Assembly (NCBI GenBank): GCA_000004985.1
Contig: GG738915.1
Length of the DNA stretch: 64,000 nt
Direction: 5' to 3' (one strand)
Source: Naegleria gruberi
Taxonomy: Eukaryota
A program made the translations under genes and the position numbers. This document shows positions 1-40,900 of this stretch, piece after piece. How positions within the stretch are numbered: the first letter of the stretch is position 1; each line of letters starts with the position of its first letter. A model generated the notes under the pieces. It was not told the origin of the DNA, made no database searches, and saw only the letters and a program-made list of their open reading frames with translations.

Positions 1-3000
1 ATTAAATATTTCATTTGCTACCTTGTTCGGAAGTGAAGTTGAGAGTGGAAAGACAATTGTCTTGTTGCAACAACCTTGCTTTTTTGGAGTGGTGAGATTA
101 ATTAAAAAGTATTGTTTGGGAAAGAGTTGGATTGATGTCATTACATTTGAGAATATTGATGAATTGTTGGAAAAGTTTAAAAATTTTCAAAGTGCTGCTT
201 CTGTAAATAGAATTGTAATTTATCTTTGCTCTAATTATCAACCAAATTCGGGAAATATTTTGAGTGAAGGGGAAAAATCTGACCTTTGTAATCTTGTTTC
301 GAAGAATATAATTGAAACGACCATCATTGAAGATAATCCATATGATTTTCTGTATGGCACCGAGAAGAGGCCTAGTACTCTTTTTGAAATACTTCCAGAG
401 AAAACAACTTTAATTGGCGGATTTTCCAAGATTCTTGCTCCAGGAATTCGTGTTGGTTATCTGATTACAAGAAATCAATCATTCAGTGGAAGATTGTACA
501 GAGAGAAGATTGATCAGGACTTGTTTACTTCTACACTGAGTCAGCAAGTTTGTGCCAATGCTTTGCAAGATGTATCGTACCTGTCAGAGTGGAGAGCGTT
601 CGTTCAAAAGAGGGTTCAATGTACTGTTAAATTATTAGAAGAAATATTTGGTGAGGAAAAGAGGAGTGGAAAGATTGAATGGACTAATATTGAAAGTGGA
701 ATTTTTGTCTATTTGAGGTTTTTCAATTCCAATCACGAAGGAGTTGCAAGTATCCAAAAATTACTTGAAATCTCCAAGAATGATTTTGAGCTAGAGTTAG
801 AACCAAGTGGATACTGCTACTTGGATGGATGCTCGAGATTGGAGACTCGCATTAATATTATGCTTTGCGAGAGTGAAGATATTTTAAGAGAGGGCCTGGA
901 AAGATTAAAGATTGCCTATCACAAGTGGACCATCTCTCCAAATGAAACAACCAGCATTCGTTCTATAAGCACTGAAGAAGAAAAACCTAATAAGCAAATA
1001 CTCAAGGTTGTTATCACCTCTGGAGGAACTGCTGTTCCAATCGATTCAGTCAGATATATCACTAACAGCTCTACAGGCACAACAGGAGCTTTAATTGCCG
1101 AGGAATTTGTAAAGAGGGGCCATTTAGTTTATTACATTCACAGCAAGAATGGAAAAGTTCCTTCGAAGAAATATCCAAACTTGATTTTACTTCCTTACTT
1201 TACCTTTGATGAGTATCTTGAAGTTCTAAAACAAACCACCATTGAATGTAATCCTGACGTCGTCATTTTGAGTGCAGCTGTTAGTGATTATGGTGTACAA
1301 CAAGCTCATGAGGGAAAGATTAGCTCTGATCTCGACACTCAAACCCTTACACTTGTCAAGTTGCCAAAGATTATTTCCTTGGTGAAACACTGGAATCCTA
1401 AAGTATTTCTTGTCGGATTCAAATTGCTTGCTGGAGCCACTACTGAAACACTTATTGATACAGCTTACAAATCTGGTATTAGAAATCATTGTAACCTCAC
1501 TGTTGCTAACACAACCACAAAGGATGACATGTCTAATTTCGGAAAGAGAATTATTACCATCATTACACCAGAGAAGAGCGTCATTTCCACATCAGTGAGA
1601 GATCTACCAAATGCATTGACTACTCATGTCGAAAAGAGAGTCTCCCACAAACACTACAAAACAATTGTTATTCCCTCTGATCACAAGGATTACATTAATT
1701 ATGAAAAAGTTATGGGCGAATCCATTCAGACCATGTTCTCCAACATCCAAAAAGGATATACTTTGGGATTATTTGATAGCTATTTTAAGGATGAAACAAT
1801 TTCAGATATGAATTCACATTTTGGATTTGTAGCAATGCGTGCCCCAGAACCATATAGTGGCTTCTTGATTACTTCCAGAGGAAGTGATAAAAGTCAACCA
1901 AGTATTAAGGATATTACCTACATTTCCAAAGTTGATTTCCAAGCAAGAACTTTGCATGTTCATTCAACTCATAGACAAAAGGCCTCTCTCAATGCTAATG
2001 TTGCTGGATGGTTATTTGAGAATAGACCGTTGGTTAATTTGATTTTACATGCTCACATCTTCCCAAGTTGTGATAACAAGACTGATTTTGACTATTCACC
2101 AGGTACTCAAGAGGATGTCGATGCTGTAGCTAGAAAAATGTCAAACAATGAAAAGATTGTGGAAATACCAGATCATGGTGTCATTTCAGTCTCTAACAGT
2201 TCAAGAATTGAAGAGGCTATTGATGCACTCGGAGAAGGACACGCCTATTTCAAGTTTGCTCACCTCTACGATATGATCTATGCAAGATTCCAAAAGTCTA
2301 CAGATTTAATCGATATCTTGGATAGAGAATTTGAAAATAAGGAAAAGGTCAAGGTCTTGGATTTGGCTTGTGGAACTGGTGAAGTTTCACGACTCATGTA
2401 CGAGAGAGGACTCAAGAATATTACATTCGCCGATCAGAGTGACAAAATGTTGAACTATGCCCACAAAAAATTCATTGATAATTTTGGAGAGGAGATTTCT
2501 AATGGAATTTCAAAACATGTTACTTCCATGCAAGATTTGAAAGTCAATAATGAAAAATTCGACCTGATTGTCATAAGACAGGCCATAAATTATGCAATGA
2601 ATTTGGAAGGATTGGAAATGATTGTTAAGAATTGCTATGAGCATTTAAATGATGGTGGAAAATTAATTTTCAACACTACAAACTTTAAATTGGATCAGGA
2701 AGGTAAATTTGCCAAGTTGAGGGAATTGAATTATGTTGCCACAGATGGACATGTTGGTATTGCTTCCACTTCAAGAAATGAGCAAGTTCCCTTCGATGTC
2801 TACATTAGGGAAGGTAACTTGTTGTATAGAGTGGATTCTGATAAGGGTGAGAGAAAGGAAATTCGAATGTTGGTTCACGCTCAACATTGCGTTGTCGAGA
2901 GAGTCATTGCAGAAAGTGGTGATAACTTTATATTTGATAGACATGTTCTCTTTGATCTCAACAAATTTGGCATGTTCACTCAACAGGAAATCACCACTGA

Positions 3001-3115
3001 ATTACTCAATGCTCAATTCAAACATGTGAAATGTCTTGGAAAGGGTCTAATTGAAATCAATGAGGAAAATTCTAACACCTCACCTTCCCTCTACTTTGTT
3101 GCCACTAAAAATTAA
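1..3115 (+). CDS. 5'-truncated multidomain protein: class I/II aminotransferase (ARO8/AADAT/KAT-like, C-terminal part) + phosphopantothenoylcysteine synthetase-like (CoaB/DFP) domain + class II aldolase/adducin-like domain + class I SAM-dependent methyltransferase domain
   Basis: One stop-free frame (frame 2) runs from the window start to the TAA ending at 3115; chance is negligible in AT-rich DNA. The track ORF 23..3115 begins at TTG, and the frame is open back to nt 2, so the 5' end lies outside the window. Aminotransferase domain, about nt 1-950: PLP-lysine motif GGFSKILAPGIRVGYL at nt ~416-460, with an AADAT/ARO8-like C-lobe after it. PPCS-like domain, about nt 1000-1700: KVVITSGGTAVPIDSVRYITNSSTGTTGALIAEEF and VVILSAAVSDY. 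Class II aldolase-like domain, about nt 1800-2240: GFLITSRG, NLILHAHIFP and EIPDHGVISVS, which match the Zn-His triad pattern of FucA/MtnB. Methyltransferase domain, about nt 2260-3112: motif I VLDLACGTG, acidic FADQSD, FDLIVI and LNDGGKLIF. Confidence 0.8.
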   Translation, partial: LNISFATLFGSEVESGKTIVLLQQPCFFGVVRLIKKYCLGKSWIDVITFENIDELLEKFKNFQSAASVNRIVIYLCSNYQPNSGNILSEGEKSDLCNLVSKNIIETTIIEDNPYDFLYGTEKRPSTLFEILPEKTTLIGGFSKILAPGIRVGYLITRNQSFSGRLYREKIDQDLFTSTLSQQVCANALQDVSYLSEWRAFVQKRVQCTVKLLEEIFGEEKRSGKIEWTNIESGIFVYLRFFNSNHEGVASIQKLLEISKNDFELELEPSGYCYLDGCSRLETRINIMLCESEDILREGLERLKIAYHKWTISPNETTSIRSISTEEEKPNKQILKVVITSGGTAVPIDSVRYITNSSTGTTGALIAEEFVKRGHLVYYIHSKNGKVPSKKYPNLILLPYFTFDEYLEVLKQTTIECNPDVVILSAAVSDYGVQQAHEGKISSDLDTQTLTLVKLPKIISLVKHWNPKVFLVGFKLLAGATTETLIDTAYKSGIRNHCNLTVANTTTKDDMSNFGKRIITIITPEKSVISTSVRDLPNALTTHVEKRVSHKHYKTIVIPSDHKDYINYEKVMGESIQTMFSNIQKGYTLGLFDSYFKDETISDMNSHFGFVAMRAPEPYSGFLITSRGSDKSQPSIKDITYISKVDFQARTLHVHSTHRQKASLNANVAGWLFENRPLVNLILHAHIFPSCDNKTDFDYSPGTQEDVDAVARKMSNNEKIVEIPDHGVISVSNSSRIEEAIDALGEGHAYFKFAHLYDMIYARFQKSTDLIDILDREFENKEKVKVLDLACGTGEVSRLMYERGLKNITFADQSDKMLNYAHKKFIDNFGEEISNGISKHVTSMQDLKVNNEKFDLIVIRQAINYAMNLEGLEMIVKNCYEHLNDGGKLIFNTTNFKLDQEGKFAKLRELNYVATDGHVGIASTSRNEQVPFDVYIREGNLLYRVDSDKGERKEIRMLVHAQHCVVERVIAESGDNFIFDRHVLFDLNKFGMFTQQEITTELLNAQFKHVKCLGKGLIEINEENSNTSPSLYFVATKN

Positions 3116-3268: not shown

Positions 3269-4560
3269 ATGAGTGGAAAATCAATTTATTCGGGAGAAAT
3301 TGAGGATGGCTGTTTTCATGGCAAAGGAACCATGATCTATGCCAATCAAGAGAAATATGAAGTGAGTATATTGTTGTTCTACTCATTCATCATAACTATT
3401 ATAACTATTGATTATTAATATAATTTATCTTAATGCTTGTATTGCTTAGGGAGATTGGGTGAAAGGAAAAAAGCATGGTGTAGGAGCCTTTACCTATTCC
3501 GATGGTTCTTATTATGAAGGTAAGGAAATTTCTTCACCATCATCAATGCTTATTATTACATCAAATTATTATATTAAATAGGCGAATGGATAAATGATCA
3601 AATTAATGGAAAAGGAACATTCCTCTACGCCAATGGAAATCGATATGTTGGAGAGTGGGCCGATTCAGTAATTAGTGGACGAGGCGTTCTGTACTATTCC
3701 GATGGTGATCGATATGATGGAGAATTTAAGGAAGGAAGAATGAATGGTGAGGGAATTTATTGTTATGCTGAGGGAGATCGATATGAAGGATCGTTTGTGG
3801 ATGATCAAAGACATGGAAAGGGAATAATGAGTTATGCTGGAGAGAATGGATCAATCTTTGAACGATATGAAGGTAGAGTAGATGAATTCAATTCATGAAA
3901 CTAACCATGTTGATTTTCTAATAAGGCGATTGGGCATTTGGTAAAATGGAAGGCATTGGAAAGTACCTATATAGTGATGGAAGTATTTACGAGGGAGAGT
4001 GGAAAGATGGCAAAATGAATGGACAGGGTCTATATAAATTTCAAAATGGTAATAGATATGAAGGCGAGTTTGTTAATGATCAAAAGCATGGTAAGGGTAT
4101 TCTGAGGTATGCCAATGGAGAGGTCTATGAAGGAAGCTGGAAAACTGATAAGCCACATGGAATGGGTACACTGACCTACTCTCACGGTGACAAGTATGTT
4201 GGAGAATTTGTCAATGCCAAGAAACATGGAAAGGGATCACTGGTCTATAGAAATGGTGACATTTATGATGGAGAGTGGAAGAATGATCATGCCAATGGTT
4301 ATGGGGTTTTGGAGTATGCCAATGGATCGAGCTACGAGGGAAACTTTGTGGATGATAAGAAACATGGTCAGGCAATTGTTAGAAGTTCAGATGGAAGTAT
4401 TTTTGAGGGAACGTACGAGAATGGAAGAAAGGAAGGAGAAGGTGTTTTAACATTGCAAGATGGATCTGTATATAAGGGTGTTTGGAAAGATGGTCTAATT
4501 GTTGGTATGGGTTATTTTATACCTTCAGCTCAATCAATTTGGAGTAGTCCAGATGTGTAG
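3269..4560 (+). CDS. MORN-repeat protein, 4 exons
   Basis: Exons are 3269..3361, 3450..3519, 3582..3872 and 3926..4560 (TAG). The introns are 88, 62 and 53 nt, with donors GTGAGT, GTAAGG and GTAGAG and acceptors TTAG, ATAG and TAAG. Phases are consistent across all junctions. The spliced product is a continuous run of 23-residue MORN units of the form YxGxWxxGKxHGxGxxxYxNGDxYEGE. The track ORF 3946..4560 is only the last exon. Confidence 0.85.
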
Positions 4561-4565
4561 TTTGT

Positions 4566-5081
4566 GGAATTTCCGGGGGGAGATCTAGTGCTGACAAACC
4601 ACTGGAGGTCTGCCTGGCGGGAACACCATTTTTAGTCTCTACAGTGACGCTTTTGTAATTAAAAAAAATAATTTAAAAAATTGGATTGTTGTTGACTACT
4701 CCGCTCACAAACATAATTTCATTTAATTTGTTGATAGTTTTCTTGATACATCACATGAACAATATGTTTAACCACATTTTTACTTTTAAACAATTCTTTT
4801 CAGCTTCGGAAACTTATTTTAATTTCGTTGATAAGAATGACATTATAGTAAGAGAAAGTTTGTTTATTGGTTTAGTGCAGACAATTAGTATATCAGTATT
4901 TGATTCTACCAATTCCATCACATATGTGGGTTGACCATGTAATTAGGTTGTGACATTTTTTTTTAATAAATCTAATAATAATAGGGTTCATATTTAGGTG
5001 GTTAGAAAACTGTAGAGAACTAATATGTTAATAAGGAATAGAGTGGACCATAGACTGGAGATCTCCCCCCCCGGGAATTTC
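4566..5081. mobile_element. Putative non-autonomous DNA transposon / MITE-like insertion, about 500 bp, with terminal inverted repeats and an 8-bp target-site duplication
   Basis: The left end reads GGAATTTC-C-G6-AGATCT (4566-4586). The right end reads AGATCT-C8-G-GGAATTTC (5059-5081). The inverted repeat is CG(6-8)AGATCT, 13-15 bp, differing only in homopolymer length. The identical direct repeat GGAATTTC sits immediately outside both repeats (4566-4573 and 5074-5081). The interior is AT-rich with no convincing ORF; track ORF 4686..4934 is low-complexity. Poly-G/poly-C runs are otherwise almost absent from the window. Confidence 0.5.
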
Positions 5082-5443
5082 GAATATTTTCTAACGAAAG
5101 ATAAAAGAATTGATGTTCACAATATGAGAAATGTTCTATTTTGAGAGATATAATCGCTGTTAGATCCTCAATACCACAAGAGTCAATTGTTTCTGGAGTT
5201 TTTTACTTCTTCAAGTCAGCAATCATCAAGAAAACAACAACACCTCATCGTAATATAATGCCATCTACAGCGAGAGATCCATCTCCCATTATGACACTTA
5301 ATGAACTCTCTGCCGTTGATGATAAAATGTACAACCCTCAACAAGACTACTCAATCTGTCATTTTCCCTCACTTTAAAAAAAAACTACGAAAACAACAAA
5401 ACCATTCAATAATTGGCCACTTAACCAAGAATTCTTTTTCAAA

Positions 5444-6946
5444 ATGGTCCTCAAGAATTTAATACCCTTCTTTAAGAGTGATAATAGCAACAATGATTCA
5501 CCTCCTCCCAACTCACCTACAACAACTATTCCACCAACAACTCAAATCTATCAGCCACCACCAACTCCAGAAAATAGACAACGAGATAATGATCAAATTG
5601 CAGCACTTGCATTGAGTCCAAGAAATCAACAAACTCAAAGACACTTTCGTTCTCCATCAATTTCCATTCCAACCACAAACAGCAACAATCAACAGCAACA
5701 ACCAACAAGTCCAACCAACACTTCTCCAACTACTAACAATACACGAAACAGAGCAATTAGTTCTCCTTTTTCATTCACCAGAAAGAGAGGAACCAGCAAT
5801 GTTTCGAATGGAAGTAATAACGGCAGTACAAGTCCTAGAGGCATTAATGGTGGTGCTTCATCTCCTCGTAATAGCCCTCAACAACCATCATCTCCAAGAA
5901 ACTTGGTGAGAGAACCAACAAGAGAAGAAAGAAGAAAGCAATTATTTAAAGAATTTGAAATGAAGAAAGTTGTCATTTATTCGAATTGTAAACGTTTGAG
6001 AGCTTTACTTGATGTTTTGATTGAAAGAGCTAAACCACATCAAGTTCAGAATGTTTCCTATGTTTTGGCACAAATGTCAGTTGTCGAAACGACTGGTTTA
6101 CCTCCAACCACTGAAAATGATCTTAAAGTTGTAAAGAGCGAATTGAATTCGATTAATCTGGAAATTTTCAGATTATCCTTGTTGATTTCTGAAAGCTACA
6201 AACAAGAAGTTTTACATCTGACAGGTGCCTCAACAATACATGACACGCGTTCACCAACAAGCATTGAAGATGAACAATTATTTGGAAATGTCAGCTGTGA
6301 ATCTGTCATTTTGAAAATAATTGGTAGAGAATTATCAGATCTTGAAAGAGATTTAGAAAGAATGCATCGTAGATGTAGAGGAAATAAGAAGAAACCTATT
6401 GAACAACCTATCCAACCTAAACGAAACAATTCCTTATTTGGAAGAAGAAGAGGAGCTTCTGCAATTGAAAGGCCAAGTAGTATGGTTCTTGGAAATCAAG
6501 ATTCAAAGAGAAGAAACTCTATGGAGTTTTATAGATCTTCAATAATTGATGAACTTGGTCAATCAGTGATGGAAAAAGTTATTGAGCGAGTTCAAAACAG
6601 TCAATTTAGAACTGTCACTAAAGAATTGCATATTGAACAGGGAATTTTAATGTTAATAGAGAAAAGATATGAAGAATTTGTGGATAAAATCAATAGATGT
6701 GACATTGACATTTATAATCCTGTCAGAATGTCAGATTTGAAATCTGAAACATTCTGGACAGATTTCCTCACGAAAAAGATGGCATTCACAGAGAATGAAT
6801 ATCAAAGTGCTCTTCAAAGTTTCTTAATTTCCAAGGAAACTGAAAATAAGAATCAAGAAGGTTCCTCGTCAATGGAAAATCAACTTTCGAATAGTAACTT
6901 TCAGATAGAGAATCGTTCTGAAGAAATTGACTTGTCTGTACAATAA
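5444..6946 (+). CDS. Hypothetical protein (500 aa); N-terminal S/T/P/N/Q-rich low-complexity region, C-terminal globular region of unknown function
   Basis: Long ORF with an ATG at 5444 and a TAA ending at 6946. No recognisable catalytic motifs. The composition is protein-like, with a basic/Ser-rich linker. Confidence 0.7.
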   Translation: MVLKNLIPFFKSDNSNNDSPPPNSPTTTIPPTTQIYQPPPTPENRQRDNDQIAALALSPRNQQTQRHFRSPSISIPTTNSNNQQQQPTSPTNTSPTTNNTRNRAISSPFSFTRKRGTSNVSNGSNNGSTSPRGINGGASSPRNSPQQPSSPRNLVREPTREERRKQLFKEFEMKKVVIYSNCKRLRALLDVLIERAKPHQVQNVSYVLAQMSVVETTGLPPTTENDLKVVKSELNSINLEIFRLSLLISESYKQEVLHLTGASTIHDTRSPTSIEDEQLFGNVSCESVILKIIGRELSDLERDLERMHRRCRGNKKKPIEQPIQPKRNNSLFGRRRGASAIERPSSMVLGNQDSKRRNSMEFYRSSIIDELGQSVMEKVIERVQNSQFRTVTKELHIEQGILMLIEKRYEEFVDKINRCDIDIYNPVRMSDLKSETFWTDFLTKKMAFTENEYQSALQSFLISKETENKNQEGSSSMENQLSNSNFQIENRSEEIDLSVQ

Positions 6947-13281: not shown

Positions 13282-15529
13282 TTATTTGGTGTTTGGAGTA
13301 TCAACAAAATCCCAACGTGAGCAGTCAACAACCAATGACTGTGCCAATAATAATCTCATTTTACAAATCCTATCGTCTGGATCAATGCTAGCAACTTGTT
13401 CTAGTAGTTGCTCTGCAGAAATAGGATCAAACCTATCTCGGCAAAATAAGTGGGAAATAGCTTTCTCAAACATTTCTTTAGTTGACCGTTTCTTACAATT
13501 TTCAAAAGGTATAATTTCCATAATTTCTACGTAATTTCTCTTACCCACTACACAGATTTTCCCAATCGATCGACAACTCCCTCCCTCTCCCAGAAAAATC
13601 GGTGAACAAGAATCAGTTACACTTTTCGATACTAGAATCTTGGCATCGTAATATTTCGTCAGAGATTCTAATCGAGCAGATAAATTGACTGCATCCCCAA
13701 CTATGGTTGGATCCATTCTCTTTGACTCTCCAATCAAGCCAACTGCACATCGTCCTCTGACAATTCCACATCCTATTGAAATAGGACCAACGATTGGTGA
13801 CACACTCTCATTAAAAACCAGAACACAATTTTGAATTTCAATCGATGCTTTCAGTGCATGGCCTGGCTCTGTAAATAGGGCAATAAATCCATCACCTTAA
13901 TAAAGTTCGTTCATAAATTTCTAAATTCTCGAATGAACATACCCATATATTTATCAATATATCCACAATTTCTCCTCACAATCGGACCAACCAAAGCCAA
14001 ATATCGATTCAATAATTTGAACATTTGATCAGTTGGTAGCCTCTCACTCATTGAAGTATAATTTCGAATATCAACAAACATAATATCCAACTCCTTCTCA
14101 AAGAAATCACCATGATGCAAATCTGTCACCTTCTGCTTATTGATAATGGACATGAATTCTCGTGGCACGAATTTGTAAACCATATCCTCTTGGAGACGCA
14201 ACATTTTCTTCCAAGGTCCTAGAATAGTTTTCGAAAATAGCAACGCCACCAATGCTGCCACAAGAACCACAATTACTATAACAATGGTAAATGCAATTAA
14301 TGAATCGGTAGCATTCAAACCAATTTGATTCGAATAGTCTAATAAGACCAATCTCATTCGATCTTCCACAATCCCTAAAAGAATTCATGCACAGAGTCAT
14401 GTTAAAAAACCATTCTTCAAGTGTATACTTTGTTAAATTTTGATAATTATCCAAGACATAATCTTCCATACTCTGACAGATATTTTGCTGAGTATCATTG
14501 AGAATATTTGTAAGGAATTCTGTGTAAATTTCATTGGATGCCTGAAGAGAGAATAAGTGTCGAACCAAGATTCCCTATAATACATTTAAAGATTTTGGTA
14601 AAAGTTGTTTTTCTTACACCACAATATTCAAAATTACTTACTTTAATGACTGCTTCTTTGAATGAATCAATCGAAGCTTGAGACAAACTTCCATTCATAA
14701 ATCCAAATGTTCCATAAATTCTTCTAATTCCTCGATATTCCCTAGCTGCGGAAAGTAAGTTGAATGAATTGTGAATTATTGCAAAAGTTGGATCCAAACT
14801 TTGACTTGTTACAACTCTAATCATATCATTGATCAAAGAATCCCAATCGTTGATGTATTGGATTGTTGGTAAAAAGGTTTCGTTCGTAACATTCTCCACT
14901 TTCATTCTCCACTCTCCAACACCTTTCGAATAACCAATGACCTTTCCCAAATAATCCTCAAACAAATACCACGTCCTTTTCCACTGTTCATTAATCAAAA
15001 TATCGTTTGGGCTTACCGAAAGTGCGAAGAACCTTTCGATAGCATTGTCAGTTCGATTTCTTGCTTCAGCTAATTCAATTGTATACTGCCTCTTATGAGA
15101 ACCTAGATAAAGAGATGTGATTCCTCTTTCATTTTGCAAACAATCACCAAGTTCTGAGAGATGCATTGTCACTCTTGATAGTTTTTTAATCTCATTCGCA
15201 TGGTTCAAGTTGACCGCAGCAGAATTAATCAGTAAGGCACCAAATACTGCCATAGGAATCAAGCAAAATGCAATAATGAGGGCCAATTTAATGATGAGAG
15301 GTATTTTCTCCAAGATTCTTATTGGAAAGAAACTATTAAACAAGGATTTGTTCATTATGGATTGAGAAGTTATTTTGGATTTGTGTCCTTTCTCAGTGAT
15401 TGGAACTGTGGTTGATGGTTCCTCGAAGGTATCTGGTACAGTACCAGATATACGTTTTGCATGCAATGTTCTTTCTGCATTGTGTTCTACTTGTTGTTGT
15501 TGGGGCGTTTCAATATTCGAAACCTCCAT
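13282..15529 (-). CDS. Receptor-type class III adenylyl/guanylyl cyclase: N-terminal cytosolic tail, TM1, about 260-aa extracellular sensor domain, TM2, cyclase catalytic domain; 4 exons
   Basis: Model in plus-strand coordinates: E1 14642..15529 (ATG at 15527-15529); intron 14575..14641; E2 14472..14574; intron 14375..14471; E3 13943..14374; intron 13896..13942; E4 13282..13895. The E1/E2 and E3/E4 junctions (GTAAGT and GTATGT donors) are solid. The E2/E3 junction (donor GTATGG, acceptor TTTTAG) is needed to get from the sensor-domain frame into the frame that encodes TM2, IAFTIVIVIVVLVAALVALLF. It is phase-consistent but tentative. Cyclase motifs: DIMFVDIRNYTSMSE, CGYIDKYMG, GDGFIALF, GPISIGCGIVRGRCAVGLIG and GDAVNLSARLES. 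Total is about 678 aa. Confidence 0.75.
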
Positions 15530-18006: not shown

Positions 18007-19719
18007 ATGGTTTGTTTACCTTCCTTATTAAATCAACCATTTGAAAAAAAATCAATGAATCCCTTCCTAGTGCTCGATTTCCACTTATCGGATGAGAATT
18101 TGTTCTTCAATCCTAACAATTTTCAGCCGGTAACCTTTGCAAATAACTGTACTTTTATTCCACAATTACAACCTCTTCAGACTCAGCCTCAATATATTAC
18201 TTCAACAACAGCATCAATAACTAATCACAATACTTCTATTAATCAACATCCTAATAATATCCAACAACAACAACTCCATCACAACAAGAATGGTTTCAAC
18301 CAACAACAAATACCTTCCTCATTCCAGAACGACTCTGTCAGTAGTTCCACTTCCTGCGATCCGGCCACTACACATGGAGGAAGCCGAAGCAACCACAACT
18401 CTGTTACAACAAATCAAACTGCTCTTGAGAATGTAGCAGAAAATGGCACATCTCAACCTTCAGAAGAGAACGCTAACTGTGATAATGCAGATGGAACCAT
18501 TGCTCCAATATCTTGTGATGCATGTCGTTCTAACCATCGTCGATGTGATCGTATCAGACCTTCATGTCAAGCTTGTAAAATAAGAGGAATCCCATGTAAC
18601 TATAGTATGAACTTTAAGAGAAGAGCCAAGTTTATTAACAATAACAGATTGAAGGATGAAGATGTTGCAATTTTGGATGTTTATTACACAGAGTCTGGAT
18701 ATCACATGGTTTCAAGGACAGAGTTGGAACAATTCTTGTTAGAATCTTATAAGTGTAACGGCTCTTACACAACACAAGATATGAAAGAGATGATAGCCCT
18801 GTATTATTCAATTAAAGCAACCTGTGAGTGTCAAATGGGTCAAATTGACAAGGCAGAGTTATCCGCAAAGCAGGCAAAGGAGTATCTTTCCAAAGTATTT
18901 GATTGCTATACCAGTATGAAGGTTGCTGGAACCTATCTCAACATGTGCTTTTATGAACTGTGGTTTGAGAGGTTACACACAGCCAAGTTTTACTTTCAAA
19001 CTCTACTCTTCTTTAAAGAAGCTCTTGAGAACTCAAAGGAAGAAACAAAGAATTCCATTAGAGAGCATCTAATAATTACAATCACCTACTTGGAGGAGAC
19101 CATATTTAACATTCAGGATAAGAAGAACCTTCATGAGAGAACCTTCGACAGGTTTTTGCTGACACTCCCAACACTCTTCTCCTATTTGAAAACTTCAGAT
19201 TGTATGTTTGGTAGTGACTGGGATTATTATTTGAAGAATCCACACCTAATTGACTCTACGAATTGTGTACAGGTTAATACACTCCTTCAAAATCTATTGA
19301 GAGAATGTAAGAGGTATGAACAGAATAATTTTGGAGGAAATCCAGTTCTGGATTTGTACTATGATGTCATGGAGAGTGGTTGTACATTGGCACTGTTGTC
19401 AAAAACTAAGGAAATGAATTCAATGATGGATTATGTCTTGGAGAGAAGTGCTACTACTATTGTAAATTCGATTAATAACCCTAAATTTGAATCAATGCCT
19501 TTTGAGATTCTTCTCCACATTTCATTTGCTGCAGAGTATCATTTGAAAAAGGTGAGAGAGGGCATATTTATGGGTAGTATGAATAATTGTGATTATATTG
19601 AAATGTTGAGAACTGAATTAAGAGCCTACCAAACCCTACAATCAAGATACAAGATTGCCAAGACTTACTTTTATGGTGGAATATTCAAGAAATTGGATGA
19701 CTATTTCAATAATCAATAA
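18007..19719 (+). CDS. Paralog B: fungal-type Zn(II)2Cys6 binuclear-cluster (GAL4-like) putative transcription factor
   Basis: 570-aa ORF. The Zn2Cys6 motif is CDACRSNHRRCDRIRPSCQACKIRGIPC (about nt 18517-18600), followed by a basic linker. The region after that is homologous to paralog A. The N-terminal part is Q/N-rich. Confidence 0.75.
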   Translation: MVCLPSLLNQPFEKKSMNPFLVLDFHLSDENLFFNPNNFQPVTFANNCTFIPQLQPLQTQPQYITSTTASITNHNTSINQHPNNIQQQQLHHNKNGFNQQQIPSSFQNDSVSSSTSCDPATTHGGSRSNHNSVTTNQTALENVAENGTSQPSEENANCDNADGTIAPISCDACRSNHRRCDRIRPSCQACKIRGIPCNYSMNFKRRAKFINNNRLKDEDVAILDVYYTESGYHMVSRTELEQFLLESYKCNGSYTTQDMKEMIALYYSIKATCECQMGQIDKAELSAKQAKEYLSKVFDCYTSMKVAGTYLNMCFYELWFERLHTAKFYFQTLLFFKEALENSKEETKNSIREHLIITITYLEETIFNIQDKKNLHERTFDRFLLTLPTLFSYLKTSDCMFGSDWDYYLKNPHLIDSTNCVQVNTLLQNLLRECKRYEQNNFGGNPVLDLYYDVMESGCTLALLSKTKEMNSMMDYVLERSATTIVNSINNPKFESMPFEILLHISFAAEYHLKKVREGIFMGSMNNCDYIEMLRTELRAYQTLQSRYKIAKTYFYGGIFKKLDDYFNNQ

Positions 19720-31985: not shown

Positions 31986-34900
31986 ATGAGAGAAACAAAG
32001 AGATCCCCATCCGCTGCTTCTGCCCTTGATGAGAGTGCAACGGTGCAGGGACTTAGTAGATTCAAACACTTTCATAGTGCAAGTGCTCCCGAATCTTTAG
32101 GAGTAGATAAACTTGAGGTAAGTGAATTCAAAACGAGGAAGTAACCAACAAGCTCTCTTATAGTACAAACCTAAGAATACATACAACGTTAGACCAAAAA
32201 CTACAATACAACCTCAAAAATTAAAGATACCTAAGGAATTACAACAATTTAATCATTTAGACCCATCTAGAAACACAAGTACAAAGAAGAGGTAAGAATA
32301 TCATAACTGAAATCAATTATTAAAAAATGATTTAATTAAACAGAGAAACTAGTACTACAACAACAAAAAGAGCATCAGCACAAGAAAAATCAAGAAAAAC
32401 ATTGGAAGAAAGACCACCAAAACAAGCCAAATATACTACCAGTGTCAGTAGATTGTCTGAATTGAACTCTTTGAATGTTAGTGCTAGAATCGGAGCCCTC
32501 AAACAAATGGATGTTGAAGAAGGAACAATTGATGTAGCTAGTTACCCAAGACTTTTAATTATTAACAAGGAATTTTCGGAAGAGGAAAAGGATATCATCA
32601 TGAGTGGGTATGTATTAATAAGAGGAATTTAATTAATAATTATGAATTGAACAGACAAGAGATTGAAAGCAAGAGCAAATTTCTACCATTAGAATTGTTT
32701 GATGACGAAGAAATATTTGAAAAATTCACTATTGAAGATCTTCTTTCGAATAGCTACATTGTACAGTCTAAGTTTTATACTGGCGCCAAATCAGCTTATG
32801 AAAAATCTTATAAGGTTTGTTTCATATTATTACTAGTGATCTAATCAAAAAACAGTGGGCTCGTTGCAGAGTTCTTGAATATAATCCTGATGAAAGAAGT
32901 TTCCTTATTGAATGGTTAGATTCTCCAAACACAACTGGATATGAAATTACAACAACTGATGAAAACAATGACTCTCCAACCACTACTAATGGCAGAAAAC
33001 AAAAATGGGTAAAAAGATTGAATTTATTAGTTCATGGAGATGAAACTTTTGAATTGAGAATAAGATTTGCACAAATGAGAAGAAAAAAGTTTGAAGAGAA
33101 AATGTTTTATTATCTTCAAATTGACAAGACTATTACTGATGACTTGATAGATATTACCCCTTTTGAAAAACAAATTTATGAAAAAATTTTGAAGCTTGTT
33201 GCAAATGAATCCCAATTCCTTTCTAGGCATGTTCCAGTCATTGAAAAATATGTTGATGAAGCAAAAGAGCATTACAAAATTTCAATGAAAGAGGCTATAT
33301 TTTTGTATTATCTGAACAGTAGAGAAGAATATGAAAAGTATGAAAAATATTTATGGTGCAAAGAAGAGCTAAGGAAAAATAATATGACAGCACCATGTTC
33401 TGGTGTTATTGAGGTACCAGCCTATAACTATCAAGCCATTCACGATATTATTGAACAAAATATCTTTTATACTCACCTTGATTTGATAACAGCAATGCAT
33501 AATATTCACTCTCAATTATTTATTTTGCTTAAAAGCTTAAAGGAAGATGGAAAGAGTATGGACTTGATTACAACACAAAAATGTGATACTCCTTGTGAGT
33601 TAGGATCATTTTTGGAGCTCCAAAGAGATACATTACAATTATCCATGAAAAGAATTAAGGAAGATTGGTGCCAAAAAGTTATTTCGATAGTGCAAAATGA
33701 TCTTGATAGATTTTTCAACTTTTTCGAAGATGATATTGAAAGATTCGAAAGCTCTAGAATGAAGAAGTTCTTGAGATTGACCAATTTCGTTCTTTCAGCT
33801 CAGTTAAGAGATTATGTTTTTGATGAACTTCACAAGTTGAGAGACTTTATAATACCTTATAGATACAGAGGATCGGATCATTTTGATGCCAATGAAGTTT
33901 CTGGATTTGAACCTTTATTTATTATCAAGATTGTGGAGAAAATTGAAAATGGAGAATCTAAGATTGCATTCGATCCTCCACTCGAATCTGTATTAGATGG
34001 CTTACGACAAATATTTTATGGAGTGCTGGAGGAAACCAATTTTATTCCAGGTATAGGAGAGACTCTCTTCCCATTATTGACTCTTAAGCCAGAACAATAT
34101 TGTATAAATAACTTAGAACTAAGATTAGAAAAAGACACAAAAGGTTTATGGAAAGATATTCAAGAAGTAATTACTTCCAACTTTAGAGAACCAGAAATGT
34201 TGCTCTCCTTATATAAGGGATATGAACATTGCTTAAAGTTGGATCCAGTCGCGTTTGCTACAGAATTTTATAATGAACATGTTGGCAAAACAGAAATGTC
34301 AAAACTTCTTTCAATCTTTAGAGAAGAATTGGCAAGACTTAAAAGTGATTCAGAAGAAGTGTATAACATTTCAACTGATAATGTCAATTTCAACTTATTG
34401 CGAGTAGATTGCAGTGGTATCAAAAACTCACTATATTTGAGAACCGATGGTACTGCAAAAGAGTTGATGAAATTAATATCAAAATGGAGTACTGAAGAGA
34501 GTAGTAAAATTACTCAATCTTTCCGAGATGTATATAGCAAAGTTCAAATCATACCTCAAACTGCTGAAGAACTGGACTCTTTAAAGAAGTACTTAACAGA
34601 TTGCACAAAGGAAATTGAAAGATTACAATCTCAATTCGCAACAGTCAAATCAAGTGTCCATTTACTCTCAGATTTTTCATTCAACCTCGACATGGATGAT
34701 TTTACAGTATTTGTAGATACTCATTCATGGCCAAAGAAGGTTTATGGACTTCTTGAGGATAGTACTATTAGACTTGAAGAAGACAAGAGAAAATTCATGG
34801 ATGAATTACAAAGAGATATCAATAATCTTCTCAGCAACTTGGATTTATATGAAAAGATTATTGAACGATTTGCTGTTTTCGATGATTTAGAAAAGACAGA

Positions 34901-37900
34901 CCAATACTATGAAAAGGTAAAGGATATGGAATCTAAATTGGAGGAAGCAAAGAAAAATTCCGAATTGTATAATAATCGTGAAAGAATGTTTAATATGAAC
35001 ACAACAGAATTTTCCAAACTGAAGGACTTGGAGAAGAACTTTAAACCTTACTTTGACTTATGGAGAATTGCTTATGAAAAGGCACAAAACTTTCCAAAAT
35101 GGAATGAAGGCACATTCATGAATTTGGATGCCAAGTTTATTGATGAATCATTAAGTATGTGGCAATCTACATTGAAAAATTTAGAAAAGAACTTGCAACC
35201 AAAGGACGAAACTGCAAGAATTATTACAAGACAAGTGAAGAAGGAGGTTGTAGCATTCTTACTTCACATGCCACTTATCAATGCCTTGAGAAAGGATGGT
35301 CTTAGACAAAGACATTGGCAGAAAATTGCAAAACTTCCACTTGAATTTGGAAAATCCACAGCCCAATTGGATATTGAAAGTATTAATATCATGAACTTGG
35401 GAGACTTTACAAAGATTGGTTTCGAAGAAAAACCAATTTTAGAAAAGATTATTGATATTTCTACATTGGCCGAGAAAGAAGCAGAAATTTCAAAGAACCT
35501 CGAAAAAATGTACTCTGCTTGGAAGAATGTCAATTTCCATCTTGAGAAATACGGTATTACATACAAACTTGTTGAATTGGATGAATTACAAGTCCTTCTC
35601 GATGAACAAATTGTTTTAACTCAAGGTATGAGAGCTTCTCCTTACGTAAAGGAACTTGAGACTGAAGTTATTGCTTGGGAAAACAAATTATTAGAAAGAC
35701 AAGATATAATGACCGAATGGATTAAGTGTCAAGTTGCTTACTTGTATTTGGAACCAATCTTCAGTTCTCAAGATATATCAGCACAGCTTCCTGATGAAGC
35801 AACCAAATTCGGTATGGTTGACAAAATGTGGAAGAATGTTATGGAAGTTACCAATAAGGTCAAAGTTGTCGCTCAAGTTGTTTCTGATGAAAATATGAGA
35901 GATAACTTTGAAACAGCCAACAAGAGATTGGAGCAAATCCATTTTGGTTTGAAACAATATTTGGAAACCAAAAGAAGAGCCTTCCCAAGATTTTACTTTT
36001 TATCAGATGATGAATTGTTGGAAATCCTTTCTGAAACTAAGGATCCACTCAGAGTTCAACCCCACTTGAAAAAGTGTTTCGAAGGTATTGAAAGGTTAGA
36101 GTTTGACAAGGAAGGAAAAATCGTTGCCATGCTCAGTAAACAAGGTGAGCGTATTCCATTCCAAAAGCATGTAATACCAGCAGAAAAGAATGGCAGAGTT
36201 GAGTTGTGGTTGTTAGAAATTGAAAATGAAATGAAGGGTAGTTTGAGACACTCTATTGAACAATCCATCAATGCATATGCTGCTATTGCTGGTAATATTG
36301 ACAAGAGAGGTCAATGGATTCTTGCATGGCCTGGTCAAGTGGTATTGACTGTAAGTCAACTTTTCTGGACAAGAGAAGTAGAAGAATCTATCAAAGCACA
36401 AGGTGTTAAAGGAGTTCAAAGATATTACTCCAAGATGACCAAACAACAAAAATCTCTTATTGAACTTGTAAGAGGAGAAAATTTAACTGCTTTGCAAAGT
36501 ATCACACTTGGTGCAATGGTCGTTATTGATGTTCACGCAAGAGATGTTGTTGCTGGTTTGGTGAAAGAGGCAGTCGGAGATATTTCAGACTTTGAATGGC
36601 AAAGTCAGCTCAGATATTATTGGGAAGATGTTAAAGATATCAAGGATGGAAAGAATCAAAACCAAATTGTTGTTAGACAAGTTACTGCTGAAATTAACTA
36701 TGGATACGAATATTTGGGTAATCAAGAAAGACTTGTCATTACACCTCTTACTGACAGATGCTACAGAACACTTACAGGTGCTCTCCAATTATTTAAGGGC
36801 GGTGCTCCTGAGGGTCCTGCTGGTACAGGTAAAACTGAAACTACAAAAGATTTGGCTAAGGCTATCGCTAAACATTGTGTAGTTTACAACTGTTCAGATG
36901 ATCTTACCTATGAGTCTATGGCTCAATTCTTTAGAGGTTTGGCATCAAGTGGTGCTTGGTCATGTTTTGACGAATTTAACAGAATTGAATTGGATGTCCT
37001 TTCTGTTGTTGCCCAACAAATTCAAACTATCCAACTTGCTGTAGCTAGTAGAGCCACCAGATTCTTCTTTGAAAATATGGAAATTAACATGAATCCAACT
37101 TGTGCTATTTTCATTACAATGAATCCTGGTTATGCTGGAAGATCTGAACTTCCTGATAACTTGAAAGCTCTCTTCCGTCCAGTCGCTATGATGGTTCCTG
37201 ATTATGCCTTGATTGCAGAAATTTCATTGTTTTCTTATGGATTTTTGGAAGGTCGTAAACTGGCTAGAAAGATTGTTTCTACTTATAGATTATGTAGTGA
37301 ACAATTGTCATCCCAAGATCACTACGATTATGGTATGAGAGCTGTTAAAGCAGTATTGGTAAGAGCAGGTTCATTAAAGAGACAATTTCCAGATCTTAAC
37401 GAAGAACAACTCATGTTAAGAGCATTGAATGACGTAAATCTTCCAAAATTCGTTTCTGCTGATATCCCATTGTTCAACGGTATCATCAAGGATTTGTTCC
37501 CAACTACAGAACATCAAAAGGTTGACTACTCTGCTCTTGAAAACGCCCTTATTCAAACATGTGCTGAAATGAATCTTCAACCTGTTCCTTACTTTATTCA
37601 AAAGATTATCCAACTTTATGAAATGATTATTGTAAGACACGGTTTGATGCTTGTAGGTTTCCCAATGTCAGGTAAAACAGCTTCCTATATTGTTTTAAAG
37701 TCTGCTTTGGAGAAATTAGGAGAAAAGATCAATCTAAGAGTCTTATCACCAAAGGCAGTTTACGGTGGAAATCTATACGGTTATAGAGATACAAAGACCA
37801 AAGACTGGAAAGATGGTGTTCTTGCTCTTCACTTCCAAAAGTTGAGTACACTTGCAGAAAAGGAAAGAAAATGGCTCATGTGTGACGGTCCTGTTGATGC

Positions 37901-40900
37901 TATTTGGATCGAATCTATGAACACAGTTTTGGATGACAACAAGAAGCTTTGTTTAACATCTGGTCAAATTATCAAAATGGGTGAAAACATGAACATGATG
38001 TTTGAAGTCCAAGATTTAGCTGCTGCTTCGCCTGCAACAGTTTCCAGATGTGGTATGGTTTATTTGGAAGCCGAAAAGCTTGGTTCTTGGGAGCCTTACC
38101 TAGCAAGTTGGCTGAGCAGTAAGGAATTCCCTCAAGCTCTTAGAGAATCAAAAGATTTTGAAGAAGTGACAGAATTATTTAAAACATTATTCTCCACTTT
38201 CATTCCTCCTGCTATCAAAATTTTCAAGTCTCACTTTATGGCCAAAGCATATGTTAGAGTTAAAAGTGATGCCATGTTGGTGAATTCATTGATTAACATT
38301 TTGCAAAGCTTGATGGATGAATTTGCAGATCCAAAAGTGATCCAAAATTACATTAAGGACAAGTCAATTATTCTTGAATGCCTTTTCCAATTTGCTTTAA
38401 TTTGGTCAGTTGGTATTGTTTCTGTTGATAGAGTTAAATTTGATCAACTTTACAGAAACATGCTGGAAGAAAGGGCAAGAAATAAGGTCTACAAATTCCA
38501 AATACCAATGCCAGAAAAGCCAAACACACTCGTTTTCGACTTTGTGTTTGACAAGAAGAGTAGAAAATGGGTTGAATGGACTGCCTCAGAATATGCTCCT
38601 AAATTTGCTGTTTCACCAACAGAAGAATTTAGAAATATTATTGTCCCAACAATGGACACTATTAGATTCCAATTCATTCTTAAAACACTTCTCGACCACG
38701 GTAAGCAACCATTATTTGTTGGCCCAACAGGTACTGGTAAAAGTGAATATGTAAAACAATTTTTACTTAAACTTGGAGCTGGTTCAAGTGAAGAAAAGGA
38801 ACAAAATAACGAACCAAAGTCAAACTTCCTTCCTGCCTTTATCAATTTTTCAGCCACCACTACACCAAGTCTTATTCAAGATATTTTGGAATCCAAGCTC
38901 ACAAGAAGAAAGCAAGGATATATTGGTCCACCAATAGGAAAGAAGACAATTATTTTTGTCGATGACCTTAACTTGCCAACATTGGATGATTATGGTGCAC
39001 AACCAACCATTGAATTATTGAGAGAATGGCAAGACAGAGGAGGCTGGCATGAAAAATTCAGCAAGCAAGCAGCCTTTACACACGTAGTTGATGTATTGTT
39101 TGTTTGTGCTATGGGTCCTCCTGGAGGTGGTAGAAACGAAGTAACTCCAAGATTTATTCGTCACTTCAATGTTATTGGTCTTACCTCATTTGACAACCAA
39201 ACATTGACCACCATTTTCTCAGATATTATGGATTGGTTCCTCTCATCCAATAGCATTAATACTATCAGTAAGATTTTGGCTAGACAAATCGTTGTTGGAT
39301 CCATCAATTTATTTAATAATGTAATTGAGCAATTCAGACCAACACCAGAAAAATCTCACTATACTTTTAACTTGAGAGATTTATCAAAGATTTTCCAAGG
39401 TGTTTGCAGTGTTGGTCCAAGACTTGATGGATCAGAATTGGAGAAGGTATCTCTAGTCAAGATTTGGGCCCATGAGGCCACAAGAGTTTTCCACGATAGA
39501 TTGATTAATGAGCAAGACAGAGAGAGTTTCTACCAATTACTTGATAAGGAACTTCAAATTGGTGAAATCAAATATATCATTGAAGAAACACCTTTTGACT
39601 ATAGAAATACTCTCTTCACTTCTTTAACTCATGATTCTTGCGAAAGATTCAAGGAAGTTGTCTTGAACAAGACCTCCAATAATCCAAAGGTTGCTGATAT
39701 TTCCAAACTACATAATATCTTGTCATCTAAATTGGAAATTTACAATGATTCACACTCAAAGATGGATCTTGTATTATTCAACTTTGCTATTGAACATATT
39801 GTTAGAATTGTAAGAATTATAACTCAACCTGGTGGTAATGCTCTCCTTATTGGTGTGGGTGGCAGTGGTAGACAAAGTTTAACCAAACTAGCTGCTTTTG
39901 CTGCTGAATACAAATTGTTTGGTATTCAATTAACAAGATCTTTCACTGTTTCTGAATGGAAAGATAAGATGAAAGAATTGTTGATTAGTGTTGGTGGTGC
40001 CAAGAAAACTCAAACTGTCTTTTTATTCAATGATAACCAAATCAAGTATCAAGAATTTTTAGAAGATATTAGCAGTATTCTTAACACTGGTGAAATTCCT
40101 AACCTTTTCGATAGAGATGAATATAAGGATATTTGTGAAAGTCTGAGAGCACATGCAAGAAATGAAAACAAAGGACAAACACCAGAAGAATTATACAACT
40201 TCTTTGTTGATAGATGTAAAGAATGTTTGCACATTGTTCTTTGCATGAGTCCAGTTGGTGAAAATTTGAGAAATTATTTGAGAATGTTCCCTTCATTGGT
40301 AAATTGTTGTAACATTGATTGGTTCAGCTCTTGGCCAGACCAAGCCCTTCATGCTGTAGCTCAAAAGTTTATCAAGAGCATTAACGAAGTAACAGATGAA
40401 GAATTGGATAATAATGTAGAAATACCAAAGGATGATGCATTCGAAAAAGATTTTGACAAGTATGTCGATATATGTGCCTACTTCCACAATAGTTCCACCG
40501 AGCTTTCTAAGCAATTCTTATTCAAGATGAAGAGACATAACTATGTTACACCAACAACTTATCTTGGTCTATTGAAGAACTTCTCCTCACTTGTAAAAGA
40601 AAAGAGAACCGAGTTGCAAACTTTGAGAGGAAAATTCGAGTTGGGTCTTCAAAGAATTGCTGAAACCGATAAGGATGTTAATGAAATGCAAAAAGAATTG
40701 GAAATTTTGCAACCAAACTTGATTGAACTTTCCAAACAAAATGAAGAATTATCCAAGAAGATTGAAATTGAATCTCAAAATGCAAACGAGAAGGCTAAAA
40801 AGATTGAAATTGAACAAGAAGAAATCAACGCACAAGTTGCTAAGAATGAACAAGACAAGGTATATTGTATGGAAGAATTAGCTCAGGCTGAACCAATTTG

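What the first reader, a model, noticed from the sequence alone, without database searches (positions are those of the whole stretch)
4566..5081. 500-bp MITE-like DNA-transposon footprint with 13-15 bp terminal inverted repeats and a perfect 8-bp target-site duplication
Immediately downstream of the MORN gene stop, the sequence C-G6-AGATCT (4574-4586) is mirrored by AGATCT-C8-G (5059-5073). Both are flanked on the outside by the identical direct octamer GGAATTTC (4566-4573 and 5074-5081). That is the classic architecture of a non-autonomous cut-and-paste element with an 8-bp target-site duplication, the size typical of the hAT, P and Merlin superfamilies. The interior has no credible ORF. G/C homopolymers of six or more occur nowhere else in the window, so chance is unlikely.
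Basis: seen in the sequence. Interest (0 to 1): 0.6.

Follow-up and report, generated by a model that had tools for sequence, protein, structure and literature searches.

The report
Lone MITE-like transposon copy in Naegleria
A 500-bp non-coding stretch just after a MORN-repeat gene of the amoeba Naegleria gruberi has the inverted ends and 8-bp flanking duplication of a small cut-and-paste transposon insertion; this is an ordinary kind of feature, and I could not test whether it belongs to a multi-copy family.

Summary
The window is a Naegleria gruberi nuclear scaffold. The described structure is present at the stated coordinates. GGAATTTC lies at 4566-4573 and 5074-5081. C-G6-AGATCT (4574-4586) faces AGATCT-C8-G (5059-5073), with a perfect 12-nt core. 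The 472-bp interior is AT-rich and has no credible ORF, RNA family or tRNA.

It is the strongest inverted-repeat-plus-flanking-repeat candidate in the window: 42 bits against 32 for the runner-up. None of 120 simulated windows reached it (fitted P about 0.004 per window). A second inverted motif, TTAG(T)TCTCTACAGT, sits 35-45 nt inside each end (p about 0.01).

The best reading is one insertion of a non-autonomous cut-and-paste DNA transposon, 5 nt after the MORN stop codon.

- No second copy occurs in the window, in three other Naegleria-type loci, or in the viral, metagenome, prokaryote and plasmid collections.
- The N. gruberi genome could not be reached, so neither copy number nor an empty site could be tested.
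- Two usual hAT marks (YARNG ends, nTnnnnAn target) are absent.
- A 9-bp (8 of 9) Mutator-like register is equally possible.

Verdict: real, probably transposon-derived, ordinary, superfamily unassigned.

The parts
4566..4573 (.). Left copy of the 8-bp direct repeat GGAATTTC (putative target-site duplication)
   Evidence: family D4, 100% identical to 5074-5081. It starts 5 nt after the MORN stop codon.
4574..4586 (+). Left terminal inverted repeat C-G6-AGATCT
   Evidence: (I6: 12-nt perfect core 4575-4586 against 5059-5070). One of only two G/C runs of six or more in the window.
4632..4645 (+). Left subterminal motif TTAGTCTCTACAGT, the inverted counterpart of 5009-5023
   Evidence: best local inverted alignment, 14 matches with one 1-nt gap. 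Reached by 27 of 2000 shuffles and 17 of 1674 same-geometry controls from the real window. Also seen as I2.
4587..5058 (.). Non-coding interior, 472 bp, 30.5% G+C. The first 60 nt are 52% G+C and the centre is 26%.
   Evidence: composition. (longest ORF 82 aa, TTG start). (no real protein relatives). (no Rfam family, no tRNA). (no similar DNA elsewhere in the window).
5009..5023 (-). Right subterminal motif; on the minus strand it reads TTAGTTCTCTACAGT
   Evidence: (I2).
5059..5073 (-). Right terminal inverted repeat AGATCT-C8-G
5074..5081 (.). Right copy of the 8-bp direct repeat GGAATTTC
3269..4560 (+). Upstream neighbour: MORN-repeat gene in several short exons. The last exon ORF is 3946-4560, with stop TAG at 4558-4560.
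   Evidence: PF02493 MORN, E = 5.6e-53.
5444..6946 (+). Downstream neighbour: NAEGRDRAFT_81839, a hypothetical protein. Gene order shared with N. fowleri and N. lovaniensis starts here.
   Evidence: 100% identity..

Best explanation
Window positions 4574-5073 are a single, probably now immobile, copy of a non-autonomous cut-and-paste (class II, terminal-inverted-repeat) DNA transposon in the Naegleria gruberi nuclear genome.

Inferred mechanism: a transposase encoded elsewhere bound the 13/15-nt ends, and possibly the subterminal TTAG(T)TCTCTACAGT motifs. It excised the element from a donor site and joined it to staggered cuts 8 bp apart in the spacer behind the MORN gene. Gap repair then duplicated GGAATTTC.

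Shown: the ends, the duplication, the lack of coding capacity and the intergenic position. Inferred: the transposition event itself, the existence of an autonomous partner, and the family. The superfamily is left open. Candidates that make 8-bp duplications are Mutator-like, Merlin and P. hAT is disfavoured. Because the element starts 5 nt after the stop codon, it probably now supplies most of the MORN gene's 3' untranslated region. That last point is inference only.
For: - The structure is exact at the stated coordinates.
- It is the top inverted-repeat-plus-direct-repeat candidate in the window by 10 bits. None of 120 simulated windows reach it, and the Gumbel-fitted P is about 0.004. The simpler count gives 0.035 per window.
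- An independent, collinear subterminal inverted motif is present, p about 0.01.
- The interior is non-coding and matches no RNA family.
- The interior composition (30.5% G+C) matches Naegleria spacers (31-33%), and there is no match in the plasmid collection. Both argue against foreign or artefactual DNA.
- DNA transposons exist in the genus at a density that makes one per 64 kb unsurprising: 379 copies in N. lovaniensis and 1.12% of the N. fowleri genome.
- N. gruberi carries Mutator-type and Kolobok elements.
Against: - Only one copy is known. There is none elsewhere in the 64-kb window, in 52 kb of other Naegleria-type DNA, or in the viral, metagenome or prokaryote collections.
- There is no transposase in the window.
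- The ends are short, and half of each is the self-complementary AGATCT.
- The octamer is quasi-palindromic and a common word in this window, so a reading without any duplication is possible.
- At P about 0.004 per window, about 2 such structures would be expected by chance in a genome of about 41 Mb (size from memory).
- Published estimates put recognisable transposons at only 0.28% of the N. gruberi genome.
Confidence: 0.6

Rival explanations
1. Chance. An ordinary intergenic spacer happens to contain a 12-nt inverted repeat next to an 8-nt direct repeat.
For: - Inverted repeats of 12 nt or more within 3 kb are common: about 33 per simulated window.
- With slack, the combined structure occurs 0.035 times per window.
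- The Gumbel tail gives 0.004 per window, which is about 2 per 41-Mb genome (size from memory).
- GGAATTTC is over-represented, 11 copies against 5 expected.
- No second copy was found.
Against: - The score is 10 bits above the next real candidate, and 0 of 120 simulations reach it.
- The ends are G/C-rich in a 35% G+C sequence and are the only two G/C runs of six or more in the window.
- The subterminal motif adds an independent p of about 0.01.
- From the N. lovaniensis count, the prior for a real DNA-transposon copy per window is of the order of 0.1-0.5. That far exceeds the chance rate.
Confidence: 0.1
2. A non-mobile structural or regulatory palindrome. The two ends form a 21/23-nt imperfect inverted repeat, GGAATTTCC-G6-AGATCT against AGATCT-C8-GGGAATTTC. 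It brackets the spacer as a cruciform or protein-binding pair. The 'duplication' is only the quasi-palindromic outer part of the arms.
For: - The outer octamer is 6 of 8 self-complementary. The single-strand fold pairs 19 consecutive bases from AATTTCC... through AGATCT.
- The whole segment folds somewhat better than shuffles: z = -2.1, reached by 2 of 100 shuffles.
- It is single-copy as far as can be seen.
Against: - The octamers are perfect as a direct repeat (8 of 8) but imperfect as an inverted repeat (6 of 8). A duplication is therefore the more economical reading.
- About 5% of random octamers are this self-complementary, and transposases that act as dimers often prefer symmetric targets (general knowledge).
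- Nothing comparable occurs in front of the orthologous genes of N. fowleri or N. lovaniensis.
- No function is indicated.
Confidence: 0.12
3. An assembly or cloning artefact. G and C runs next to BglII sites (AGATCT) resemble homopolymer tailing plus linkers.
For: Only the engineered look of G6-AGATCT ... AGATCT-C8, together with CCCGGG at the right end.
Against: - The flanks are a perfect duplication of host sequence.
- The interior has Naegleria spacer composition.
- There is no similarity to any of 72,556 plasmid records.
- Neither end reproduces a standard linker arrangement.
- To my knowledge the shotgun libraries used for this genome involved no tailing step.
Confidence: 0.03

Closest known systems
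MITEs (miniature inverted-repeat transposable elements; non-autonomous class II elements)
   Same: Size (500 bp), short terminal inverted repeats, flanking target-site duplication, AT-rich non-coding interior, and insertion in a gene-proximal spacer.
   Different: MITEs are defined as families of many copies. Only one copy is known here, and no autonomous partner has been identified.
Mutator-like elements (MULEs), including the MuDRF element reported in N. gruberi
   Same: Duplications of 8-10 bp. Termini often start with G-rich runs (own knowledge). The superfamily is documented in this species. An alternative register here gives a 9-bp duplication (T/G)GGAATTTC matching 8 of 9, with ends that are G runs followed by AGATCT.
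   Different: The perfect repeat is 8 bp, not 9. MULE inverted repeats are usually much longer. No sequence comparison with MuDRF termini was possible.
hAT superfamily non-autonomous elements
   Same: 8-bp target-site duplication and short (10-25 bp) terminal inverted repeats.
   Different: The ends start CGGGG rather than the usual (T/C)A(A/G)NG. The duplicated octamer GGAATTTC does not fit the usual nTnnnnAn target. No hAT element is reported for Naegleria in the papers I could search.
Merlin / IS1595-type and P-type elements
   Same: 8-bp (or 8-9 bp) duplications. As I recall, Merlin and IS1016 ends begin with G runs.
   Different: No transposase is available and neither superfamily is reported in Naegleria. 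The resemblance rests on duplication length and recalled end sequences only.

Membership tests
MITE / non-autonomous terminal-inverted-repeat transposon | Terminal inverted repeats at both ends | tested here: met
   13/15-nt ends with a perfect 12-nt core. Statistically unusual together with the duplication.
MITE / non-autonomous terminal-inverted-repeat transposon | Target-site duplication directly abutting the ends | tested here: met
   GGAATTTC at 4566-4573 and 5074-5081, 8 of 8 identical and directly adjacent to the ends. Caveat: the octamer is quasi-palindromic and a common word in the window.
MITE / non-autonomous terminal-inverted-repeat transposon | Small size and no coding capacity | tested here: met
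   500 bp. The longest ORF is 82 aa from a TTG start. The only two database matches are summed weak hits to unrelated repetitive proteins.
MITE / non-autonomous terminal-inverted-repeat transposon | Many copies in the genome, with the same ends and different flanking duplications | not testable with these tools
   There is no second copy in the 64-kb window, in loci L001-L003 or in the public collection scans. The N. gruberi assembly itself could not be reached.
MITE / non-autonomous terminal-inverted-repeat transposon | Insertion polymorphism, meaning an empty site in a related genome | not testable with these tools
   The only relatives available (N. fowleri, N. lovaniensis) share about 45% protein identity with N. 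gruberi. Their gene order differs upstream of the downstream gene.
hAT superfamily | 8-bp target-site duplication | tested here: met
hAT superfamily | Ends beginning (T/C)A(A/G)NG (a usual, not absolute, mark; own knowledge) | tested here: not met
   Both ends read CGGGG....
hAT superfamily | Target preference nTnnnnAn (a usual, not absolute, mark; own knowledge) | tested here: not met
   GGAATTTC has G at position 2 and T at position 7. Its complement GAAATTCC has A and C at those positions.
Mutator-like elements | Duplication of 8-10 bp, typically 9 | tested here: inconclusive
   The repeat is perfect at 8 bp. A 9-bp register, TGGAATTTC against GGGAATTTC, matches 8 of 9. MuDRF of N. gruberi makes 9-bp duplications.
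Mutator-like elements | Ends shared with an autonomous element that encodes a MuDR-type transposase | not testable with these tools
   No N. gruberi DNA outside the window was available.
Merlin and P superfamilies | Ends shared with an element encoding the matching transposase | not testable with these tools
   Only the duplication length (8 bp) agrees. Neither superfamily was found reported for Naegleria.
piggyBac / Kolobok (reported in Naegleria) | TTAA target-site duplication | tested here: not met
   The flanks are ...AATTTC|C and G|GGAATT..., with no TTAA at either junction.
CACTA / CMC-EnSpm (reported in N. lovaniensis) | CACTA-type ends with a 2-3 bp duplication | tested here: not met
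   The ends are CGGGGGG... and the duplication is 8 bp.

The most novel reading that the evidence does not exclude
This copy is the first sighting of an undescribed Naegleria transposon family whose termini are G homopolymers followed by a BglII palindrome, possibly outside the superfamilies catalogued for the genus. Its position, exactly where gene order shared with N. fowleri and N. lovaniensis ends, would then reflect a transposon-associated rearrangement.
Probability: 0.12. Interest if true: 0.4.

Novelty: new member of a known kind. Interest (0 to 1): 0.2.

Why it matters
If confirmed, it adds one small non-autonomous DNA transposon to the sparse mobile-element catalogue of Naegleria gruberi, a transposon-poor, deep-branching eukaryote. 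Its ends would serve as a probe for finding the autonomous partner. It also marks a gene whose 3' untranslated region was probably replaced by transposon sequence. None of this changes current understanding; it is routine repeat annotation.

Tried and rejected
1. Second copy in the window. BLASTN with word size 7 on the element, and a search for the 12-nt end with up to 2 mismatches, found nothing beyond chance.

2. Longer inverted ends. The overall alignment of the first and last 120 nt is not significant once the 13/15 nt are removed. Only one subterminal motif stands out.

3. Hidden RNA gene. There was no Rfam match at E up to 1 and no tRNA. The G+C-rich left subterminal segment does not fold unusually.

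4. Hidden protein. The 82-aa ORF, searched against 1.84 billion representative proteins, gave only two spurious hits to repetitive proteins.

5. Relatives in public DNA. Three patterns were tried: both ends with a 450-480 nt gap, end plus subterminal motif, and the G+C-rich segment. The viral and metagenome scans found nothing. The prokaryote scans gave one hit, a chance match inside an Accumulibacter ABC-ATPase gene.

6. Vector or artefact. There is no match in the plasmid collection.

7. Reaching the N. gruberi genome. Exact-protein look-ups for two window proteins and for the database copy of one of them (P0001) all failed.

8. Orthologous empty site. The N. fowleri and N. lovaniensis loci were fetched. 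They are too diverged and are rearranged upstream.

9. The other side of the rearrangement. A search with the N. lovaniensis SET-domain neighbour returned no N. gruberi protein. It returned only a 9-kb environmental Naegleria-like contig (L003). That contig has no copy of the element, and its one AGATCTCCCCC lies in coding sequence.

10. MORN orthologues. The search returned only distant MORN proteins and not the N. gruberi protein.

11. Literature. I found no description of Naegleria MITEs or of hAT, P or Merlin elements in the genus. A search for Repbase-style names gave noise. The 2010 genome paper is not held in the library.

Full report
Origin of the window. The 500-aa ORF at 5444-6946 is 100% identical to NAEGRDRAFT_81839 of Naegleria gruberi, on a 260-kb scaffold. 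Its only other relatives are the N. lovaniensis and N. fowleri orthologues, at 44-46% identity. The window is 35% G+C. It carries ordinary eukaryotic genes with short introns: MORN repeats, dynein heavy chain, kinases, an ABC transporter, NFACT, Gpi1, a ZIP transporter and others. No ORF of 120 aa or more that was scanned matches a transposase family.

The observation.
- GGAATTTC occurs at 4566-4573 and 5074-5081.
- Immediately inside lie C-G6-AGATCT (4574-4586) and AGATCT-C8-G (5059-5073).
- The perfect inverted core is 12 nt. With the outer C/G pair the ends are 13 and 15 nt, differing by two bases in the homopolymer.
- The MORN ORF ends with TAG at 4558-4560, so the left octamer begins 5 nt after the stop codon.
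- The interior (4587-5058) is 30.5% G+C, like other spacers in the window at 31-33%.
- Its longest ORF is 82 aa from a TTG start. Against 1.84 billion representative proteins, that ORF found only two summed weak matches to unrelated repetitive proteins.
- There is no Rfam family at E up to 1 and no tRNA.

Chance. Runs of six or more G or C occur only at the two ends. Shuffles predict about four G6 matches per window, so the absence elsewhere carries little weight. I scanned the window for every perfect inverted repeat of at least 10 nt within 50-3000 nt and looked for abutting direct repeats, allowing 0-3 nt of slack on each side. This element is the only one with an 8-nt direct repeat. In 200 simulated windows generated with a first-order Markov model, inverted repeat of 12 or more plus direct repeat of 8 or more occurred 0.035 times per window. 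When each candidate is weighted by the improbability of its bases, the element scores 42.3 bits against 32.0 for the next real candidate. Simulated maxima were 33.7 +/- 2.1, with a largest value of 39.8. None of 120 reached the observed value, and a Gumbel fit gives P of about 0.004 per window. Two corrections work against the finding. GGAATTTC is a frequent word here, 11 copies against 5.0 expected. At that P, about 2 such structures could occur by chance in a genome I recall to be about 41 Mb.

One independent observation works for the finding. The best local inverted match between the 100 nt inside the left end and the 100 nt inside the right end is TTAG-TCTCTACAGT against TTAGTTCTCTACAGT. 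It lies 45 and 35 nt from the ends. That score was reached by 27 of 2000 shuffles and by 17 of 1674 equally spaced segment pairs from the real window. The overall alignment of the ends beyond the 13/15 nt is not significant.

Ambiguities of reading. AGATCT is self-complementary. GGAATTTC is 6 of 8 self-complementary. The single-strand fold therefore pairs 19 bases from AATTTCC through AGATCT, and the ends can be read as a 21/23-nt imperfect inverted repeat with no duplication. I prefer the duplication reading because the octamers match 8 of 8 as a direct repeat but only 6 of 8 as an inverted one. A further register gives a 9-bp duplication, TGGAATTTC against GGGAATTTC (8 of 9), with ends that are pure G runs followed by AGATCT. 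One copy cannot settle the boundaries.

Search for relatives. No second copy of the interior or the ends exists in the window. There is none in the N. lovaniensis and N. fowleri loci (L001, L002) or in an environmental Naegleria-like contig (L003). The AGATCTCCCCC in L003 lies inside a polo-kinase coding region. Three exact-pattern designs were scanned across viral, metagenome and prokaryote collections. The only hit was a chance match in an Accumulibacter ABC-ATPase gene. The plasmid collection gave no match, which argues against vector or construct DNA. The N. gruberi assembly could not be reached: exact-protein look-ups failed for two window proteins and for the database copy of one of them, P0001.

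Context. In N. lovaniensis and N. fowleri the orthologue of 5444-6946 is preceded by a divergently transcribed SET-domain gene, then Ssl1/VWA and Ints3 genes. None of these has a counterpart in the window. Downstream, gene order is shared with the window from 5444 to at least about 13200. Shared gene order therefore ends in the MORN-81839 spacer that holds the element. With species this diverged, breakpoints are frequent (citing Herman et al.), so this is only suggestive.

Prior expectation. Published repeat annotations report 379 DNA-transposon copies in N. lovaniensis, including CMC-EnSpm and piggyBac. They report 1.12% DNA elements in N. fowleri. One survey found only 0.28% recognisable transposons in N. 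gruberi. A Mutator-type MuDRF element with 9-bp duplications and Kolobok are reported for N. gruberi or the genus. A real DNA-transposon copy in a 64-kb window is thus far more likely a priori than the chance structure.

Interpretation. The best-supported explanation (confidence about 0.6) is one insertion of a non-autonomous cut-and-paste element. The ends, the duplication and the non-coding interior are shown. The transposition event, the trans-acting transposase and the family are inferred. The rivals are:
- a non-mobile structural palindrome (0.12);
- chance (0.10);
- an artefact (0.03).
The remainder allows for other mobile-element histories.

On superfamily:
- piggyBac and Kolobok (TTAA duplication) and CACTA (CACTA ends, 2-3 bp duplication) are excluded by the sequence.
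- The usual hAT marks (YARNG ends, nTnnnnAn target; own knowledge) are not met.
- Mutator-like, Merlin and P remain possible and cannot be tested without an autonomous partner.

Verdict. The feature is of an ordinary kind, with low interest (0.2).

Noticed in passing
window 4561-5443, compared with L001:9211-10000 and L002:9415-10000: Gene order shared with N. fowleri and N. lovaniensis ends in the spacer that holds the element. Their orthologue of 5444-6946 is preceded by SET, Ssl1/VWA and Ints3 genes, which are absent from the window. Downstream, the order is shared to about 13200.
   Followed up: partly
window 4587-4646: The first 60 nt inside the left end are 52% G+C. The element's centre is 26% and the matching right-hand segment is 35%. 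The segment shows no unusual fold and no match elsewhere.
   Followed up: partly
window 23-3115 (+): One long ORF (1030 aa) combines a DFP/CoaB-type domain (PF04127) with a C-terminal SAM methyltransferase domain, plus long unassigned stretches. This is an unusual fusion.
   Followed up: no
window 18007-19719 (+): A fungal-type Zn(2)-Cys(6) binuclear cluster domain (PF00172, E = 2e-7) occurs in a Naegleria protein.
   Followed up: no
window 13282-15529 (-): Adjacent ORFs on the minus strand carry a NIT nitrate/nitrite-sensing domain and a guanylate/adenylate cyclase catalytic domain. They are probably exons of one sensor-cyclase gene.
   Followed up: no
whole window: The octamer GGAATTTC is over-represented, with 11 copies on both strands against 5.0 expected. 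Only 1 of 100 shuffles reached 11.
   Followed up: no
L003:3611-4413 against window 59847-60659: A 9-kb contig from ENA metagenome ERZ27315067 (38.8% G+C) carries a kinase gene 71% identical in DNA to a window kinase. It also carries a SET gene 44% identical to that of N. lovaniensis. It is apparently an uncultured Naegleria-like amoeba.
   Followed up: partly
window 32817-45049 (+): A dynein heavy chain is split into two overlapping long ORFs (32817-42575 and 42365-45049). This implies an intron or a frame change near 42400-42575.
   Followed up: no
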